Virus record (IMG/VR): IMGVR_UViG_2534681658_000022
Length of the DNA: 38,034 nt
DNA from: a virus
Taxonomy: Duplodnaviria > Heunggongvirae > Uroviricota > Caudoviricetes
Reading direction: 5' to 3' (one strand)
How positions within the stretch are numbered: position 1 is the first letter of the stretch; every line of letters starts with the position of its first letter. The position numbers and the translations under genes are program-made. Positions 698-37,249 of this stretch are shown here, piece after piece. Below the pieces are notes generated by a model. It made no database searches. It was not told the DNA's origin and worked only from the letters and a program-made list of their open reading frames with translations.

Positions 698-1060
698 GGG
701 GCTGATTCTGGATTCGACGGGATTTGCGAAACCCAAGGTGCATGCCGAGGGGCGGTTGGCCTCGTAAAAAGCCGCAAAAAATAGTCGCAAACGACGAAAA
801 CTACGCTTTAGCAGCTTAATAACCTGCTTAGAGCCCTCTCTCCCTAGCCTCCGCTCTTAGGACGGGGATCAAGAGAGGTCAAACCCAAAAGAGATCGCGT
901 GGAAGCCCTGCCTGGGGTTGAAGCGTTAAAACTTAATCAGGCTAGTTTGTTAGTGGCGTGTCCGTCCGCAGCTGGCAAGCGAATGTAAAGACTGACTAAG
1001 CATGTAGTACCGAGGATGTAGGAATTTCGGACGCGGGTTCAACTCCCGCCAGCTCCACCA
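698..1060 (+). ncRNA. ssrA: tmRNA (SsrA, transfer-messenger RNA)
   Basis: 363 nt starting GGGGCTGATTCTGGATTCGACGGG and ending GGTTCAACTCCCGCCAGCTCCACCA (tRNA-like 3' end with CCA). Internal tag frame at 781-813, GCAAACGACGAAAACTACGCTTTAGCAGCTTAA, encodes ANDENYALAA-stop. Confidence 0.93.
1016..1060. repeat. attL core: 45-bp direct repeat (3' end of ssrA), identical copy at 36244-36288
   Basis: ATGTAGGAATTTCGGACGCGGGTTCAACTCCCGCCAGCTCCACCA occurs twice in the window and brackets the phage gene set. Confidence 0.85.
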
Positions 1061-1070
1061 AATAAATCAA

Positions 1071-1103
1071 GGGGTTACGTGAAAGCGTAGCCCCTTTTTC
1101 TTT
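1071..1103 (+). terminator. Rho-independent terminator after ssrA
   Basis: GGGGTTACG / CGTAGCCCC stem (one mismatch) with loop TGAAAG, followed by TTTTTCTTT. Confidence 0.55.
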
Positions 1104-1183
1104 GGTAGTGGCGGCAAAATGGCGACAAACTTTTGCGTCTATCTTGCCTGTCGCCATCTTGAAATCATGCAAAGAGGTTTCAC

Positions 1184-1666
1184 ATGGAAGAACTTCACTT
1201 TGTTTACATCAATGCAAATGGTCGTATCGGTGTTCACTCTATACAGGGCATCAGTTATAGCGAAAATCATATACAGGGCATTTGTAAGAACACCGATCGA
1301 ATAAAAACCTTCCGAAAAGACCGCATTCTTAAACAGTACGATTCACCAGAACAAGCCATTCAGGAATGCGCGTCATTCCTCCCCGAAAACTACTCACATC
1401 TCACTAAGCAGTCTGGTCCGAAAAAAAATACATTCGATGTGTGTTTCACCGGATTTAAGAAAGCAGATAAAGAAAGATTGGTTGATAAGGCGAATGAACA
1501 AGGATTAACGGTAAGAACCTCTGTAACCCAAAGCCTTCAGATGCTCTGTTGCGGTTACAATGCAGGCCCATCAAAAGTATCGGCAGCCAGGATGAAAGGC
1601 ACAATCATCATAGATGAGCCTGGCTTTATACATTTTCTTGAAACGGGTGAGATCCCAGATGAATAA
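1184..1666 (+). CDS. Hypothetical cargo protein with WYL-like N-terminal segment and BRCT-like C-terminal domain
   Basis: 160-aa ORF with AGAGG 7 nt upstream of the ATG. N-terminus has a QGICKNTDRIKTFRKDRI segment resembling the conserved WYL-domain core. C-terminus (FDVCFTGF...KERLVDKANEQGLTV...AGPSKVSAARMKGTIIIDE) resembles the BRCT domain of NAD-dependent DNA ligase. Domain calls are by eye. Confidence 0.6.
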   Translation: MEELHFVYINANGRIGVHSIQGISYSENHIQGICKNTDRIKTFRKDRILKQYDSPEQAIQECASFLPENYSHLTKQSGPKKNTFDVCFTGFKKADKERLVDKANEQGLTVRTSVTQSLQMLCCGYNAGPSKVSAARMKGTIIIDEPGFIHFLETGEIPDE

Positions 1667-1692
1667 AAACCTGCCGTAGCAGGTTCTCTTTC

Positions 1693-1911
1693 TCAAAAAT
1701 TCATATGCCCCTGACCACCTGGCAATGGATGTGGAGGAGCAGTAGCAATCAGTGCGGGTGTCACAATAAACCGGACCACTGTTTCATGGGTAACAAAAGT
1801 GCTCCCGCAGTTAATATTTTGGCACTGGCAGTAACGCTCTTTGGTGCTTTCAGTTACTTGAAAACTGCTCCTTGTGTGTGCCGCATGACCACACTTTGGA
1901 CAATTCATCAT
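1693..1911 (-). CDS. ogr: Late-gene transcriptional activator, Ogr/Delta zinc-finger family
   Basis: 72-aa product MMNCPKCGHAAHTRSSFQVTESTKERYCQCQNINCGSTF... with the C-x2-C...C-x4-C Ogr zinc finger. Start set at the internal ATG; the tracked ORF extends to 1956. Confidence 0.85.
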   Translation of the reverse strand: MMNCPKCGHAAHTRSSFQVTESTKERYCQCQNINCGSTFVTHETVVRFIVTPALIATAPPHPLPGGQGHMNF

Positions 1912-1979
1912 ATCCAGATCCCTACCTTTGCTATCAGAATCATTGTAATGATACACAAAATACCAATATTGAGAACCTT

Positions 1980-33837: not shown

Positions 33838-34470
33838 ATGTTAAACATCAGAATGGGTTCCGATACGGGAGGTAAGGCAGCTATTGAGAGGCTGCTTGAG
33901 GCTTATGGATTCACAACTAAGCAGGCATTAAGCGAGCACCTGAATGTCTCAAAAAGTACTATGGCAAACAGAGTGTTACGTGACAGTTTTCCTGCTGACT
34001 GGATAATTCAGTGTGCACTAGAAACCGGTGTTTCGTTACTTTGGTTAGCCACAGGACAGGGAAGCATGAAAGAAGGATACGAGCCTGAGAAAAGATCTCA
34101 TAACGAGAACAAACAAGCAATTAAACCGTTATCCAAACTCATAACTCCATCTATTCCTAAAGGAACCTTGGAAAATGGACAACTCAGTATTGATGAAGAG
34201 ATTTTCCTAGACCACAGCATATTACCTGCAGATTATGAAGAATCGATGTTCTTAGAAACCCCTACTGATTGTTATCTCATCGATAAATCAGTTAAACAAG
34301 TCAGCAATGGATTCTGGCTTATCAATATTGATGGAATGATTATTATTGCAAAAATCATGCGGATTCCCGGCAATAAGATTGTAGTAAATCAAGATGAAGC
34401 ATCTTTCGAGTGCTCTGCTGATGATGTGGAAGTTATTGGGCGTGCAGTCAAAGTAATAAAGAGTATCTAA
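33838..34470 (+). CDS. cI: CI-type immunity repressor
   Basis: 210 aa with N-terminal HTH region and C-terminal domain; GGAG RBS; divergent from apl and immediately upstream of int, as for 186 cI. Confidence 0.8.
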   Translation: MLNIRMGSDTGGKAAIERLLEAYGFTTKQALSEHLNVSKSTMANRVLRDSFPADWIIQCALETGVSLLWLATGQGSMKEGYEPEKRSHNENKQAIKPLSKLITPSIPKGTLENGQLSIDEEIFLDHSILPADYEESMFLETPTDCYLIDKSVKQVSNGFWLINIDGMIIIAKIMRIPGNKIVVNQDEASFECSADDVEVIGRAVKVIKSI

Positions 34471-34472
34471 AC

Positions 34473-35489
34473 ATGACTGTCAGAAAACAGCCAAACGGTA
34501 AATGGTTGTGCGAGTGCTATCCCAATGGACGCAATGGCAAGCGCGTGCGTAAGCAATTTGCTACGAAAGGCGAAGCCATTGCTTTTGAAAGCTTCACAAT
34601 GGAAGAAGTGAACAAAAAACCATGGCTGGGGGAAAAGGAAGATCGGCGACACCTATCAGAATTAATTGAGCAGTGGTATTCCCTGTATGGTCAAACACTC
34701 GCAGACCCCAAGCGCCTCATGGCGAAACTTAGAATTATCTGTAATGGTCTAGGCGATCCCATCGCTTCAGAACTGACAGCCGGTGACTTTACGAAATACC
34801 GCGAAGCACGGTTAAAAGGTGAAGTACGAAATGAAGATGGCACGTTTATGTCGCCCGTTAAGCCCCGCACGGTAAACCTTGAACAGCGCAATCTATCATC
34901 TGTTTTTGGTACACTGAAAAAGTTGGGCCACTGGTCAGCCTCCAACCCGCTTGCTGGGCTGCCAACATTTAAAATTGCTGAGAGTGAATTGGCGTTCCTG
35001 ACCCCGGAAGAAATTAAACGTCTGCTGGATGCCTGCGCCGATTCTCAAAGCTCCAGCCTGCTTTTGATTGCAAAAATATGCCTGGCCACCGGCGCACGCT
35101 GGAGCGAAGCCGAAAACCTGCAGAGTCATCAGGTATCAAAATACCGTATCACTTATACCAAGACCAAAGGCAAGAAAAACCGAACTGTGCCTATTTCTAA
35201 GGATTTATATGAAGAACTGCCTAAGAATAGGGGGAAGTTATTCACCCCATGCAGAAAAGCCTTTGAGCGTGCAGTAAAGCGGGCTGGTATCGATCTGCCA
35301 GAGGGTCAATGTACTCACGTTCTGCGTCATACATTCGCTAGCCATTTTATGATGAATGGTGGAAACATATTGGTTTTGCGGGATATCCTAGGACATTCAG
35401 ATATAAAAATGACCATGGTCTATGCACACTTCGCCCCAGACCATTTAGAAGATGCCGTAACTAAAAATCCTTTATTTAATTTGAGGTAA
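34473..35489 (+). CDS. int: Tyrosine integrase (P2/186 type)
   Basis: 338 aa with the conserved R...HxLRH...Y catalytic region (VLRHTFASH...MTMVYAH); follows cI. Confidence 0.92.
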   Translation: MTVRKQPNGKWLCECYPNGRNGKRVRKQFATKGEAIAFESFTMEEVNKKPWLGEKEDRRHLSELIEQWYSLYGQTLADPKRLMAKLRIICNGLGDPIASELTAGDFTKYREARLKGEVRNEDGTFMSPVKPRTVNLEQRNLSSVFGTLKKLGHWSASNPLAGLPTFKIAESELAFLTPEEIKRLLDACADSQSSSLLLIAKICLATGARWSEAENLQSHQVSKYRITYTKTKGKKNRTVPISKDLYEELPKNRGKLFTPCRKAFERAVKRAGIDLPEGQCTHVLRHTFASHFMMNGGNILVLRDILGHSDIKMTMVYAHFAPDHLEDAVTKNPLFNLR

Positions 35490-35499
35490 GTAGTAATTT

Positions 35500-36168
35500 A
35501 TGAATAGCGAACTAGAGTTACTTATAAAAATATTATTCCCTTCCCTATCTGCCATTATATCCTTATTAGGGCTTAAAACAGGGTGGACTTATAAAAAAGA
35601 CAAACTATTCACATCACGTAAAAACATTAGCGAATTTTCATATCAGATGTATAAAAGCAGTGAAGATCCGACCTTCAAAAAACTGGCGGAAGATTACGGC
35701 ATTGCTGCATTAACCAAAGATAACACATTGACAAAAAAACAAAGATTAATATTACTCAACACAACAAACCCCGTTAGCGATATAGATAATTATTCCAAAT
35801 GTCAAAGTCTAATTTCCATTACCACCCATAAAGAAATATTCGCATGGAATAAAAAAAGATATAAATACAGCATATATAGAAAATTAATAAAAATCATAAC
35901 AACTCTAATTTACTTCATGAGCAGTCTCATCGTAGCACTTCCTTTCAGTTATTCTGTTGTAGTAAGTGCTAAGATGATGGAGAAGATAAACCATCTAACT
36001 ACTTGGCAATACTTTGGTTTAAGCAGCTATTTTGTGGTATCGGGAGTAGCAATATGCTTTATCTGCCTAGATAAGCTCTCCAAGATTAAGATCGCCGAGA
36101 GATTAATCGTTTCGAATAGGCGTTTAGGCGACAAATGCAGTGGCGGCACTTTGGCGGCAGAAAGTTAA
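35500..36168 (+). CDS. Hypothetical membrane protein between int and attR (candidate lysogenic-conversion cargo)
   Basis: 222-aa very AT-rich ORF starting 11 nt after the int stop on the same strand. N-terminal TM helix, Lys-rich cytoplasmic region, then two C-terminal TM helices. Confidence 0.55.
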   Translation: MNSELELLIKILFPSLSAIISLLGLKTGWTYKKDKLFTSRKNISEFSYQMYKSSEDPTFKKLAEDYGIAALTKDNTLTKKQRLILLNTTNPVSDIDNYSKCQSLISITTHKEIFAWNKKRYKYSIYRKLIKIITTLIYFMSSLIVALPFSYSVVVSAKMMEKINHLTTWQYFGLSSYFVVSGVAICFICLDKLSKIKIAERLIVSNRRLGDKCSGGTLAAES

Positions 36169-36243: not shown

Positions 36244-36288
36244 TTGAAATGCTATGTAGGAATTTCGGACGCGGGTTCAACTCCCGCC
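36244..36288. repeat. attR core: second copy of the 45-bp ssrA 3'-end repeat
   Basis: Identical to 1016-1060. Confidence 0.85.
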
Positions 36289-36322
36289 AGCTCCACCACT
36301 TTTTAGTTGTTTGAAGTTCAAT

Positions 36323-36356: not shown

Positions 36357-36463
36357 GGGCTTTTTTACGTCTATTGTCGTCCAGTGAGAATTGCTGAGAA
36401 CTACGAGTTATGGCACCCTGAATGGGACCCACTAAGAAGGGTCCAAAAACCGAGGGTCCCAAA

Positions 36464-37249
36464 ATGGCAAAAATCGCTAAGAAGCTCACTGACACTGAAA
36501 TCAAAAGCACCAAGCCAGCCGATAAAGAAATCAACTTGTTTGACGGTGATGGTCTGATTCTACGAATCGCTCCTTTGGCGAAAGGAGGCAAGAAAAATTG
36601 GTATTTCAGGTATGCAGTACCAGTGAGCAAGAAAAGAACCAAAATGAGCCTTGGGACATATCCTCACCTTACCCTTGCAAGAGCCAGAGCCTTACGTGAT
36701 GAATATCTCTCCTTTCTGGCAAATGGTGTTGATCCCCAAATCCATAACAACGATAAGGCGAAGGCATTAAAGAGTGCTACTGAGCACACTCTCCAAGCCG
36801 TAGCGCGGAAATGGTTAGATGAGAAGGTAAAGACATCAGGTATCTCACAAGACCATGCAGCAGACATCTGGCGCAGCTTAGAGAGAAATGTCTTTCCCGG
36901 TCTGGGTAATGTCCCTATCAATGAGATCCGACCTAAGCTCTTAAAACAACACCTTGATCCTATTGAGCAACGAGGCGTATTGGAAACTCTACGCCGTATC
37001 ATTTCACGTCTGAATGAAATCTTCCGGTGGGCAGCTACTGAAGAACTTATTGAGTTCAACCCGGCTGACAACCTTGGTCAAAGATTCAGTAAACCAAAAA
37101 AGCAAAATATGCCTGCCCTTCCCCCAAGCGAATTGCCAAGGTTTATGGAATCTTTGACGAATGCGTCAATCCGGTTGGAAACACGTATGCTAATTGAATG
37201 GCAATTGTTGACATGGGTTCGTCCGGGTGAAGCCGTTCGCGCAAGGTGA
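36464..37249 (+). pseudogene. intA: P4-type (IntA-like) integrase, 3'-truncated by IS insertion
   Basis: N-terminus (TDTEIKSTKPADKEINLFDGDGLILRIAP...) and internal segment (ESLTNASIRLETRMLIEWQLLTWVRPGEAVRAR) track the CP4-57 IntA family. The frame ends in a TGA created at the IS629 left end. Confidence 0.8.

What the first reader, a model, noticed from the sequence alone, without database searches (positions are those of the whole stretch)
1184..1666. Small WYL-like/BRCT-like protein between attL and ogr
The 160-aa product combines an N-terminal segment resembling the WYL ligand-sensing domain (QGICKNTDRIKTFRKDRI) with a C-terminal region that aligns by eye with the LigA BRCT domain. WYL domains commonly regulate defence and DNA-damage loci, and BRCT domains bind nicked DNA or phosphoproteins, so a compact fusion would be an unusual sensor at the prophage edge. 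It is convergent with ogr and may be read through from ssrA.
Basis: inference. Interest (0 to 1): 0.55.

Follow-up and report, generated by a model that had tools for sequence, protein, structure and literature searches.

The report
Small WYL–BRCT prophage accessory protein
A real, well-conserved 160-residue gene at the edge of a P2-like prophage in E. coli encodes two ligand-binding domains (WYL-like and BRCT) and no enzyme; in relatives it sits beside the phage repressor and integrase genes, but its function has never been tested.

Summary

The gene is optional cargo of P2-like (Peduoviridae) phages. It is present in 171 of 5426 complete E. coli genomes and absent from Fels-2 and SopEPhi. 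In other genera it lies directly downstream of the immunity repressor, often before int. In this phage's circular form the order is CI->int->orf222->attP->this gene.

No paper describing its function was found; the WYL+BRCT fusion was listed in 2014. My best guess, at low confidence, is a non-enzymatic binder of DNA ends or gaps, made in lysogens, that serves superinfection exclusion. The finding is moderately interesting.

The parts
1184..1666 (+). CDS of the 160-aa WYL-BRCT protein (stop codon included)
   Evidence: ORF list. PHROG 2561 matches over the full length at 1e-76. 122 homologues. dN/dS 0.05-0.11.
1184..1405 (+). N-terminal WYL-like domain, residues 1-74: a five-stranded Sm-like barrel (residues 3-52) followed by two short helices. 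It carries invariant Y8 and T42 and the conserved T42-F-R-K-D-R47 motif.
1433..1663 (+). C-terminal BRCT domain, residues 84-160, of the LigA/RFC1 type. T89-G90 and K131 are invariant; K92, K93 and K96 are nearly invariant.
1173..1177 (+). Shine-Dalgarno sequence AGAGG, 6 nt upstream of the ATG
   Evidence: Read directly from the sequence.
1069..1096 (+). Phage-borne terminator hairpin that replaces the ssrA terminator after integration. It lies upstream of the ORF in both the prophage and the circular form.
   Evidence: Terminator scan. Conserved in related loci. The flanking sequence matches the Fels-2 attP region.
1668..1685 (.). Hairpin between the convergent WYL-BRCT and ogr genes, probably a bidirectional terminator
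   Evidence: Terminator scan. Inverted repeat I3.
1016..1060 (+). att core at attL, which is the 3' end of ssrA
   Evidence: Exact repeat at 36254-36298.
1115..1161 (.). 13-nt inverted repeat (CAAAATGGCGACA / TGTCGCCATCTTG, 21-nt spacer) just upstream of the RBS. Its role is unknown; it could be an Int/IHF arm site or an operator.
   Evidence: Repeat search. Only the left arm is conserved in related loci.
1693..1956 (-). ogr late-gene activator, the convergent neighbour (context only)
   Evidence: Pfam Ogr_Delta 1.5e-20.
33838..35489 (+). CI repressor (33838-34470) and integrase (34473-35489). These form the lysogeny unit that reads towards attP and the WYL-BRCT gene in the circular phage.
   Evidence: Pfam Phage_CI_repr plus Phage_CI_C, and Int_N plus Phage_integrase. 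The circular gene order is confirmed in phage Cartapus.
35500..36168 (+). orf222, a 3-TM membrane protein of unknown function that occupies the int-attP cargo slot. It is independent cargo, not an obligate partner.
   Evidence: PHROG 21256, no Pfam match. It is present in 29 E. coli genomes against 171 for the WYL-BRCT gene.
36254..36298 (+). att core at attR

Best explanation
The gene is a lysogeny-module accessory gene (a 'moron') of P2-like phages. It encodes a small non-enzymatic protein made of two phosphate/nucleic-acid-binding modules.

Shown here: the fold and family of both domains, the conserved pockets, the lack of any catalytic domain, its status as optional cargo, and its recurrent placement directly downstream of the immunity repressor and/or next to int/attP.

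Inferred: it is made in the lysogen at low level. The LigA/RFC1-type BRCT pocket (T89-G90, K92/K93/K96, K131) holds a 5'-phosphate at a duplex end or nick, while the WYL barrel (Y8, Q31, T42, R44, D46, R47) holds adjacent single-stranded DNA or a nucleotide. Together they would recognise ss/ds junctions such as cohesive ends, gaps or resected ends.

Most likely consequence, also inferred: it caps or marks such structures on incoming or replicating foreign phage DNA, giving superinfection exclusion or defence. This would be analogous in position to lambda rexAB behind cI.
For: - Domains.
- No enzyme: only residues 43-146 align to the last ~100 positions of LigA (19.5 bits against a cut-off of 444). 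Only residues 76-153 align to the BRCT tail of a DEDDh exonuclease model (26 bits against 389).
- Invariant pocket residues.
- The isolated RFC1 BRCT domain binds recessed 5'-phosphate DNA with a Kd of about 10 nM (PMC9293004 citing Kobayashi 2006 and 2010).
- WYL domains of CapW and DriD bind ssDNA (PMC11662680).
- Optional cargo: 171 of 5426 E. coli genomes carry the gene, against 822 that carry the att flank. It is absent from Fels-2 and SopEPhi, where attP abuts ogr. GC is 41.6% against 49.5% for the prophage.
- Lysogeny-unit placement: a repressor gene lies immediately upstream on the same strand in 21 of 61 loci, and two genes upstream in 4 more. Two unrelated repressor types are involved, 186-CI-like and HTH+S24.
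- Annotated phages agree. Mannheimia PHL101 has a 3-nt gap after cI with the RBS inside cI. Vibrio PV94, Yersinia MLG42, Burkholderia phages and Cartapus show related arrangements.
- The int-att and int-primase intervals of P2-like phages are reported minor defence hotspots (PMC13586616).
- Neighbouring or fused genes include PDC-S48-like TerB+BRCT defence candidates, a RES-like protein and membrane proteins.
Against: - There is no experiment of any kind and no effector domain.
- The protein is not basic (pI 6.95; BRCT part 5.3), which is unusual for a DNA-backbone binder.
- The two arginines that flank the WYL motif and contact ssDNA in CapW correspond here to E27 and Q31 (using the PafBC alignment). 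The tryptophan of the motif is also absent. The WYL ligand may therefore not be ssDNA.
- No sigma-70-like promoter was found between the upstream terminator and the ORF, so expression in this lysogen is unproven.
- PADLOC matches cover only the BRCT part.
- About half of the 63 loci could not be placed in a phage context.
Confidence: 0.3

Rival explanations
1. The protein is a switch or induction modulator for the phage itself. The WYL domain would sense ssDNA or a damage- or infection-derived nucleotide, as it does in DriD, PafBC and CapW. The BRCT domain would dock onto a phage or host protein (CI, Apl/Cox, Int, LigA or RNA polymerase) or onto DNA. The effect would be to tune the lysogeny/lysis decision or excision. 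This resembles the reported second role of lambda RexA (that comparison is from my own knowledge and was not checked here).
For: In many relatives the gene is tightly coupled to the repressor gene, with a 3-nt gap and the RBS inside cI in PHL101, or is adjacent to int/attP. Characterised WYL proteins are DNA-damage or ssDNA sensors (and the abstracts).
Against: The gene is optional. It is absent from close relatives with the same CI, int and att (Fels-2, SopEPhi) and present in only about a fifth of E. coli prophages at this site. It is associated with two unrelated repressor families and is also found outside recognisable P2 contexts. This pattern fits portable cargo better than a co-evolved regulator. 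The protein has no HTH or WCX domain.
Confidence: 0.2
2. The protein is a decoy or competitor of host NAD-dependent ligase. A free LigA-like BRCT domain would occupy nicks or LigA's partners and so modulate nick sealing. Examples would be delaying ligation of cohesive ends or of replication intermediates, for the phage's benefit or to the detriment of rival phages.
For: The closest sequence relatives of the C-terminal domain are LigA and RFC1 BRCT domains. The LigA-type G-x-N-A-G-P-x-K loop is conserved. Deleting the BRCT domain reduces LigA nick joining (PMC10386641).
Against: Similarity to LigA BRCT is modest (E about 1e-4). Constitutive interference with an essential ligase should be toxic in a lysogen. 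This idea does not explain the conserved WYL domain.
Confidence: 0.1
3. The protein is a nucleotide or second-messenger sponge (anti-defence). Two ligand pockets and no effector would sequester a signalling nucleotide, an NAD-derived molecule or an ADP-ribose-like molecule used by a host defence system.
For: The protein is small, has no effector, and has two conserved polar/basic pockets. Its overall charge is neutral to acidic, which fits a small-molecule binder better than a DNA binder. Some BRCT domains bind NAD+ or poly(ADP-ribose) (PMC10386641; PMC6334254 abstract).
Against: The gene lies in the lysogeny unit rather than among early lytic genes. It has no similarity to known sponges, and no PADLOC, Pfam or PHROG hint points that way.
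Confidence: 0.1
4. The database annotations are correct: the gene encodes a DNA ligase or an exonuclease.
For: PHROG 2561 is labelled 'DNA ligase'. RefSeq phage records call it 'DNA ligase', and the Cartapus record calls it 'putative exonuclease protein'.
Against: The protein is 160 aa. Only the BRCT tail of LigA aligns (positions 550-650 of 652; 19.5 bits against a cut-off of 444), and only the BRCT tail of the DEDDh exonuclease model aligns (229-307 of 331; 26 bits against 389). No nucleotidyltransferase, OB, Zn-finger, HhH or DEDD domain appears in Pfam or in the predicted fold.
Confidence: 0.01

Closest known systems
WYL-domain ligand sensors (Pfam PF13280): PafBC, DriD, CapW, BrxR
   Different: There is no wHTH DNA-binding domain and no WCX extension, so it cannot be a transcription factor of that type. 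The W of the W-Y-L motif is missing (x-[H/Y]-[I/L/F]). The arginines that flank the motif in CapW are E and Q here. The window sequence itself does not reach any Pfam WYL score.
BRCT domains of bacterial NAD-dependent DNA ligase (LigA) and of clamp-loader subunit RFC1
   Same: These are the best sequence and Foldseek matches. They share the single-BRCT alpha/beta fold, the conserved T-G at the start of helix 1 and the G-x-x-A-G-x-x-K loop. The isolated RFC1 BRCT binds recessed 5'-phosphate DNA (PMC9293004).
   Different: Here the domain stands free with a WYL domain instead of being an appendage of an enzyme. It is acidic overall (pI 5.3). DNA binding has not been shown.
WYL+BRCT domain architecture catalogued by Makarova, Anantharaman, Grishin, Koonin and Aravind 2014 (PMC4012209); PHROG 2561; NCBI 'BRCT domain-containing protein'
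   Same: It is the same two-domain combination. The window protein matches PHROG 2561 end to end (1e-76), and RefSeq names some E. coli copies 'BRCT domain-containing protein'.
   Different: These sources give only a listing or a name, and the name 'DNA ligase' is misleading. None describes the conserved position behind the repressor or next to attP in Peduoviridae, and none gives a function.
Lysogeny-operon exclusion genes such as lambda rexA-rexB downstream of cI (own knowledge), and the minor P2 defence hotspots int-att and int-primase (PMC13586616)
   Same: The gene is co-directional with, and often directly downstream of, the immunity repressor. It is optional and has lower GC than the phage. 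The neighbouring slots hold variable cargo, namely a RES-like protein or the membrane protein orf222.
   Different: There is no sequence or fold relation to RexA or RexB. No membrane or toxic effector is obligately linked: orf222 co-occurs in only a minority of genomes. An exclusion phenotype has not been tested.
PADLOC candidate PDC-S48
   Same: They share a BRCT C-terminus (1.7e-7 over residues 83-153 against model positions 335-406 of 411). TerB-like+BRCT proteins that match PDC-S48 lie next to the WYL-BRCT gene in L043 and L060.
   Different: Only about 70 of 411 model positions match. The N-terminal parts are unrelated, so it is not a member.

Membership tests
WYL domain (Pfam PF13280) | Sm/SH3-like five-stranded beta-barrel fold | tested here: met
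WYL domain (Pfam PF13280) | Profile match at or above Pfam's gathering score (21.8 bits) | tested here: inconclusive
   The window protein has no hit even at E<=10. Among family members, 17/40 N-domains match (best 2.4e-6). One homologue scores 27.5 bits, above the gathering score. Among remote relatives found with the N-domain profile, 24/52 match (best 2.8e-10).
WYL domain (Pfam PF13280) | Eponymous W-Y-L motif on the third strand | tested here: not met
   The window protein has N28-H29-I30. In the family, position 28 is variable (E/N/D), position 29 is H in 33 and Y in 27 of 62 sequences, and position 30 is I, L or F. No tryptophan is present (register taken from the PafBC alignment).
WYL domain (Pfam PF13280) | Conserved basic strand motif R-x-F-R-x-D-R-I near the end of the domain | tested here: met
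   The motif is K41-T42-F43-R44-K45-D46-R47-I48. Counts out of 62: T42 62, F43 59, R44 57, D46 56, R47 55. It aligns with VRNFRLDRV of PafBC.
WYL domain (Pfam PF13280) | Binds a negatively charged ligand (ssDNA, RNA or nucleotide) | not testable with these tools
   This needs binding assays. Only some of the ssDNA-contact positions of CapW are conserved.
wHTH-WYL-WCX transcription regulators (PafBC, DriD, CapW, BrxR) | N-terminal winged HTH and C-terminal WCX domain flanking the WYL domain | tested here: not met
   No HTH or WCX appears in Pfam for the window protein, 62 family members or 52 remote relatives. The WYL barrel starts at residue 3 and is followed by a BRCT domain.
BRCT domain (Pfam PF00533) | Beta-alpha-beta-beta-alpha-beta-alpha BRCT fold | tested here: met
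BRCT domain (Pfam PF00533) | Profile match at or above the gathering score (21.3 bits) | tested here: inconclusive
   The window protein scores 19.5 bits at E=1.2e-3, just below the cut-off. 54/62 family members match (best 2.1e-6), and several homologues score 26-35 bits. A family profile against the PDB hits RFC1 and LigA BRCT at 6e-5.
BRCT domain (Pfam PF00533) | Phosphate-binding pocket: S/T-G at the beta1-alpha1 turn plus a Lys in alpha2 | tested here: met
   T89, G90 and K131 are invariant in 62/62 sequences. K92, K93 and K96 are present in 57-59 of 62. The alignment with RFC1 places K131 on the S-K of GQSK. That these positions bind the phosphate in RFC1 and BRCA1 is from my own knowledge.
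NAD-dependent DNA ligase LigA (the annotation in PHROG 2561 and RefSeq phage records) | Adenylation (nucleotidyltransferase) domain, OB fold, Zn finger and HhH domains | tested here: not met
   TIGR00575 aligns only at positions 550-650 of 652, with 19.5 bits against a cut-off of 444. No such domains appear in Pfam or in the model.
DEDDh exonuclease (the annotation in phage Cartapus) | DEDD exonuclease catalytic domain | tested here: not met
   NF004719 aligns only at positions 229-307 of 331, which is its BRCT tail, with 26 bits against a cut-off of 389.
PADLOC PDC-S48 defence candidate | Full-length match to the 411-position model | tested here: not met
   Only positions 335-406 match residues 83-153.
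Prophage lysogeny-unit cargo (moron) of Peduoviridae | Optional gene, co-directional with and downstream of the repressor/int, with presence/absence polymorphism among close relatives | tested here: met
   Supported. GC is lower than the phage average.
Prophage lysogeny-unit cargo (moron) of Peduoviridae | Expressed in the lysogen and gives a phenotype (exclusion, defence or fitness) | not testable with these tools
   No promoter was identified. No transcriptome or phenotype data were found.

The most novel reading that the evidence does not exclude
A minimal sensor with no effector domain, consisting only of a WYL barrel and a LigA/RFC1-type BRCT domain, is co-transcribed with the immunity repressor of P2-like phages. 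It recognises ssDNA next to a 5'-phosphate duplex end. Through this it would either exclude superinfecting phages by capping their cohesive ends or replication intermediates, or act as a RecA-independent damage/infection sensor feeding into the lysis-lysogeny switch. Either outcome would be a new mode of action for both a WYL and a bacterial BRCT domain.
Probability: 0.25. Interest if true: 0.65.

Novelty: new variant of a known kind. Interest (0 to 1): 0.4.

Why it matters
All characterised WYL proteins couple the sensor barrel to a DNA-binding HTH or to an enzyme. Bacterial BRCT domains are known mainly as appendages of LigA and of a few polymerase-associated exonucleases. A free-standing WYL-BRCT protein under strong purifying selection could reveal how two binding modules act without an effector. 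It is spread across P2-like phages of Enterobacterales, Pasteurellaceae, Vibrio, Aeromonas, Pseudomonas and Burkholderia, and it sits in the transcription unit that is active in lysogens. It could also add a small, single-gene entry to the list of prophage-encoded exclusion or switch-modulating functions. On the practical side, the finding corrects a propagating mis-annotation ('DNA ligase', 'exonuclease'). It also points to the att-flanking and repressor-downstream slots of Peduoviridae as places to look for cargo genes.

Tried and rejected
- Direct Pfam, NCBIfam and PADLOC scans of the window protein gave only sub-threshold BRCT hits and no WYL hit. Family-level scans and structure prediction were needed.
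- A phmmer/hmmsearch of the N-domain against PDB sequences gave only a non-significant PafBC hit (E=1.3).
- I considered that orf222, the membrane protein across attP, forms a two-gene Rex-like system with the WYL-BRCT gene, because homologues are adjacent in L008 and L010. I rejected it as an obligate partner: it is in 29 E. coli genomes against 171, and Cartapus has a different gene in that slot.
- The 'X domain' that is fused or adjacent in some relatives has no Pfam, PADLOC or PDB match, so it gave no functional lead.
- No conserved sigma-70 promoter could be identified upstream of the ORF.
- An Rfam scan of 1-2500 found only tmRNA.
- Literature searches for WYL+BRCT, BRCT+anti-phage+prophage, PDC-S48, TerB+BRCT+WYL and PHL101 found no functional study. 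Kobayashi 2010 (PMC2843171) is not held, so the RFC1 pocket residue numbers rest on my own knowledge.
- The truncated-fragment hypothesis is rejected.
- The ligase and exonuclease annotations are rejected.

Full report
**Setting**

The window begins with smpB (1-483) and the tmRNA gene ssrA (698-1060). A 45-bp stretch at the 3' end of ssrA (1016-1060) is repeated exactly at 36254-36298. These repeats are the attL and attR cores of a roughly 35-kb P2/Fels-2-like prophage.

- The left end reads ogr (1693-1956, -), gpD, gpU and the tape-measure gene, all on the minus strand.
- The right end reads a 186-type CI repressor (33838-34470, +), integrase (34473-35489, +), a 222-aa membrane protein (35500-36168, +) and then attR.
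- The DNA from 1061 to 1700 is 100% identical to several ETEC chromosomes. It is 98-99% identical to the Peduoviridae phages 500465-1 and Cartapus.

Yes. An ATG ORF of 160 codons lies at exactly 1184-1666 on the + strand. AGAGG sits 6 nt upstream of the ATG, and a hairpin at 1668-1685 is shared with the convergent ogr gene.

- 122 homologues were retrieved, most of them 157-175 aa long.
- One scan of species-representative genomes gave 63 loci.
- Orthologues in Klebsiella, Citrobacter, Tatumella, 'Erwinia' and Plesiomonas are about 70% identical in protein. Their synonymous sites are saturated, and dN/dS is 0.05-0.11 where it can be computed.
- Seven alignment columns are invariant in 62 sequences: Y8, T42, T89, G90, F91, L99 and K131.
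- PHROG 2561 matches from end to end (1e-76), so the ORF is a complete gene and not a fragment.

**The BRCT call**

The window protein alone scores just below Pfam's BRCT threshold, at 19.5 bits against 21.3. The family evidence is much stronger.

- 54 of 62 family members match BRCT, and several relatives score 26-35 bits.
- A family profile finds the BRCT domains of RFC1 and of LigA in the PDB at about 6e-5.
- The T-G dipeptide at the start of helix 1 and the Lys of the G-x-N-A-G-P-x-K loop are invariant. K92, K93 and K96 are nearly so.
- From my own knowledge, these are the positions that hold a phosphate in phosphopeptide-binding BRCTs and in RFC1.
- The isolated RFC1 BRCT binds recessed 5'-phosphate DNA ends tightly (PMC9293004).

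**The WYL call**

The window sequence gives no Pfam WYL hit at all. The call is nevertheless supported at family and fold level.

- WYL is the only family that recurs among the N-terminal domains of relatives: 17 of 40, best E 2.4e-6.
- One Pasteurellaceae homologue passes the WYL gathering score, at 27.5 bits against 21.8.
- The N-domain profile was searched against 1.84 billion representative proteins and found 790 proteins at E<=1e-3. Of 52 hits with other lengths or architectures, 24 are Pfam WYL (best 2.8e-10) and 23 carry BRCT; none has an HTH.
- The T-F-R-K-D-R-I strand aligns with N-F-R-L-D-R-V of PafBC.

The domain is therefore a divergent WYL subfamily that almost always travels with BRCT. 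It differs from the textbook domain in three ways:

- The tryptophan of the W-Y-L motif is absent; the family has x-[H/Y]-[I/L/F] instead.
- The two arginines that flank the motif and touch ssDNA in CapW (PMC11662680) correspond here to E27 and Q31.
- There is no HTH and no WCX domain.

**What it is not**

RefSeq and PHROG call it 'DNA ligase', and one phage record calls it 'putative exonuclease'. Only the BRCT tails of those families align, with 19.5 bits against a LigA cut-off of 444 and 26 bits against 389 for the DEDDh model. No catalytic domain is present in the sequence or the model. The PADLOC hit to candidate PDC-S48 also covers only the BRCT part.

**Context: the most informative result**

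1. The gene is optional.
   - Fels-2 and SopEPhi use the same att site but have ogr about 50 bp from attP, with nothing in between.
   - 822 complete E. coli genomes carry the att flank, but only 171 carry the gene.
   - Its GC content is 41.6% against 49.5% for the prophage.
2. Integration splits the circular phage at attP.
   - In the packaged genome of phage Cartapus the order is Cox<- | CI-> int-> cargo-> attP-> WYL-BRCT-> | <-ogr. The gene is therefore co-directional with, and at the far end of, the CI-int unit.
   - The same holds for this window once attR is joined to attL.
3. In other genera the gene lies inside that unit.
   - A repressor gene lies immediately upstream on the same strand in 21 of 61 loci, and two genes upstream in 4 more. 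int often follows.
   - The repressors belong to two unrelated types: 186-CI-like, and HTH plus S24 peptidase.
   - Annotated phages agree. In Mannheimia PHL101 the gene starts 3 nt after cI, with its RBS inside cI. Vibrio PV94 has HTH->gene->hyp->int. Yersinia MLG42 has cI->int->gene. Burkholderia phages have XRE->hyp->gene|<-D.
4. At least 33 of the 63 loci are in P2-like or repressor contexts. The rest, mostly MAG fragments, could not be classified.
5. A 2026 survey reports the int-att and int-primase intervals of P2-like phages as minor defence hotspots (PMC13586616).

**Linked genes**

The membrane protein orf222 lies across attP here, and homologues lie directly after the gene in Acerihabitans and Rahnella. 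However, it is in only 29 E. coli genomes, and Cartapus has a RES-like protein in that slot. It is therefore independent cargo.

Some distant relatives carry an extra domain of about 150-200 aa with no match in Pfam, PADLOC or the PDB. It can be fused at either end or encoded next door. Some relatives sit beside TerB-like+BRCT proteins that match PDC-S48. Two Pasteurellaceae versions may have N-terminal membrane helices, but their start codons were not verified.

**Mechanism**

Shown:
- The protein has two ligand-binding modules with conserved pockets and no enzyme.
- It is optional cargo placed in or next to the lysogeny transcription unit.
- It is under strong purifying selection.

Inferred:
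- The protein is made in lysogens.
- The BRCT pocket takes a 5'-phosphate at a duplex end or nick, and the WYL barrel takes adjacent ssDNA or a nucleotide. The pair would then recognise ss/ds junctions such as cohesive ends, gaps or resected ends.
- The reading I favour is non-enzymatic capping or marking of such structures on foreign phage DNA, which would give exclusion. From my own knowledge, P2-type phages excise and replicate as circles, so the resident phage would be little affected. I give this 0.3.

Caveats:
- The protein is not basic (pI 6.95; BRCT part 5.3).
- The WYL pocket lacks two of CapW's DNA-contact arginines.
- No promoter was found between the upstream terminator (1069-1096) and the ORF.

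Rivals:
Its patchy distribution and its association with two unrelated repressor families argue against this.
- A LigA BRCT decoy (0.1).
- A nucleotide sponge (0.1).
- A true ligase or exonuclease (about 0.01, refuted at sequence level).

**Novelty**

The WYL+BRCT combination was listed in 2014 (PMC4012209), and the family exists as PHROG 2561 and as 'BRCT domain-containing protein' in RefSeq. I found no paper that tests it.

It is best described as an uncharacterised variant of known sensor families. It is a WYL protein without an HTH or an enzyme, and a bacterial BRCT domain outside a ligase. As far as I could find, its conserved position behind the repressor or next to attP in Peduoviridae has not been pointed out.

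Interest is moderate at 0.4. The object is well defined, small and easy to test, but its function is currently only guessed.

Noticed in passing
window 35500-36168 (+): orf222 is a 222-aa protein with about 3 hydrophobic segments. It matches PHROG 21256 (unknown function) and has no Pfam hit. Its GC is 34.5%. It fills the int-attR cargo slot. Homologues at 37% identity sit directly after the WYL-BRCT gene in L008 and L010. In phage Cartapus the same slot holds a 401-aa RES-like protein.
   Followed up: partly
L024 5989-7116, L030 5974-7164, L011 5443-6489, L013 5242-6456, L015 6502-7098, L039 2174-3163, L060 4587-5036: An unknown domain of about 150-200 aa (motif GW.F.VP..F..ALDI ... WTQG) is fused to the C-terminus or the N-terminus of WYL-BRCT homologues, or is encoded next to them. 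It has no Pfam, PADLOC or PDB sequence match.
   Followed up: partly
L043 6544-7440; L060 5056-6222: TerB-like+BRCT proteins lie next to the WYL-BRCT gene or contain its BRCT match. The L043 protein matches the PADLOC defence candidate PDC-S48 over model positions 234-378 of 411.
   Followed up: partly
L047 5536-6492; L052 5719-6519: The Pasteurellaceae homologues may carry N-terminal transmembrane helices ahead of the WYL-BRCT part. This rests on longest-ORF start codons that were not verified.
   Followed up: no
L015 4521-5507 (-) and one other unclassified locus: Judged by eye, the neighbouring tyrosine recombinase looks like an integron integrase (IntI-type N-terminus). The WYL-BRCT gene may be an integron cassette there.
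   Followed up: no
window 1115-1161: A 13-nt inverted repeat (CAAAATGGCGACA / TGTCGCCATCTTG) with a 21-nt spacer lies immediately upstream of the RBS. Only the left arm is conserved in related Enterobacterales loci. It may be an Int/IHF arm site or an operator.
   Followed up: partly
window 1240-1251 and 1270-1281: An exact 12-nt direct repeat, TATACAGGGCAT, occurs 30 nt apart inside the WYL coding region and encodes IQGI twice. It is specific to this lineage.
   Followed up: no
window 36422-37249 (+): A CP4-57-type integrase ORF of 275 aa (Arm-DNA-bind_3 plus Phage_int_M, apparently lacking the catalytic domain) lies just beyond attR. This indicates tandem occupation of the ssrA site by a second, probably decayed, element.
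   Followed up: partly
window 1069-1096: After integration the ssrA terminator is supplied by the phage. The hairpin is part of the attP flank shared with Fels-2, SopEPhi and Klebsiella P2-like phages.
   Followed up: partly
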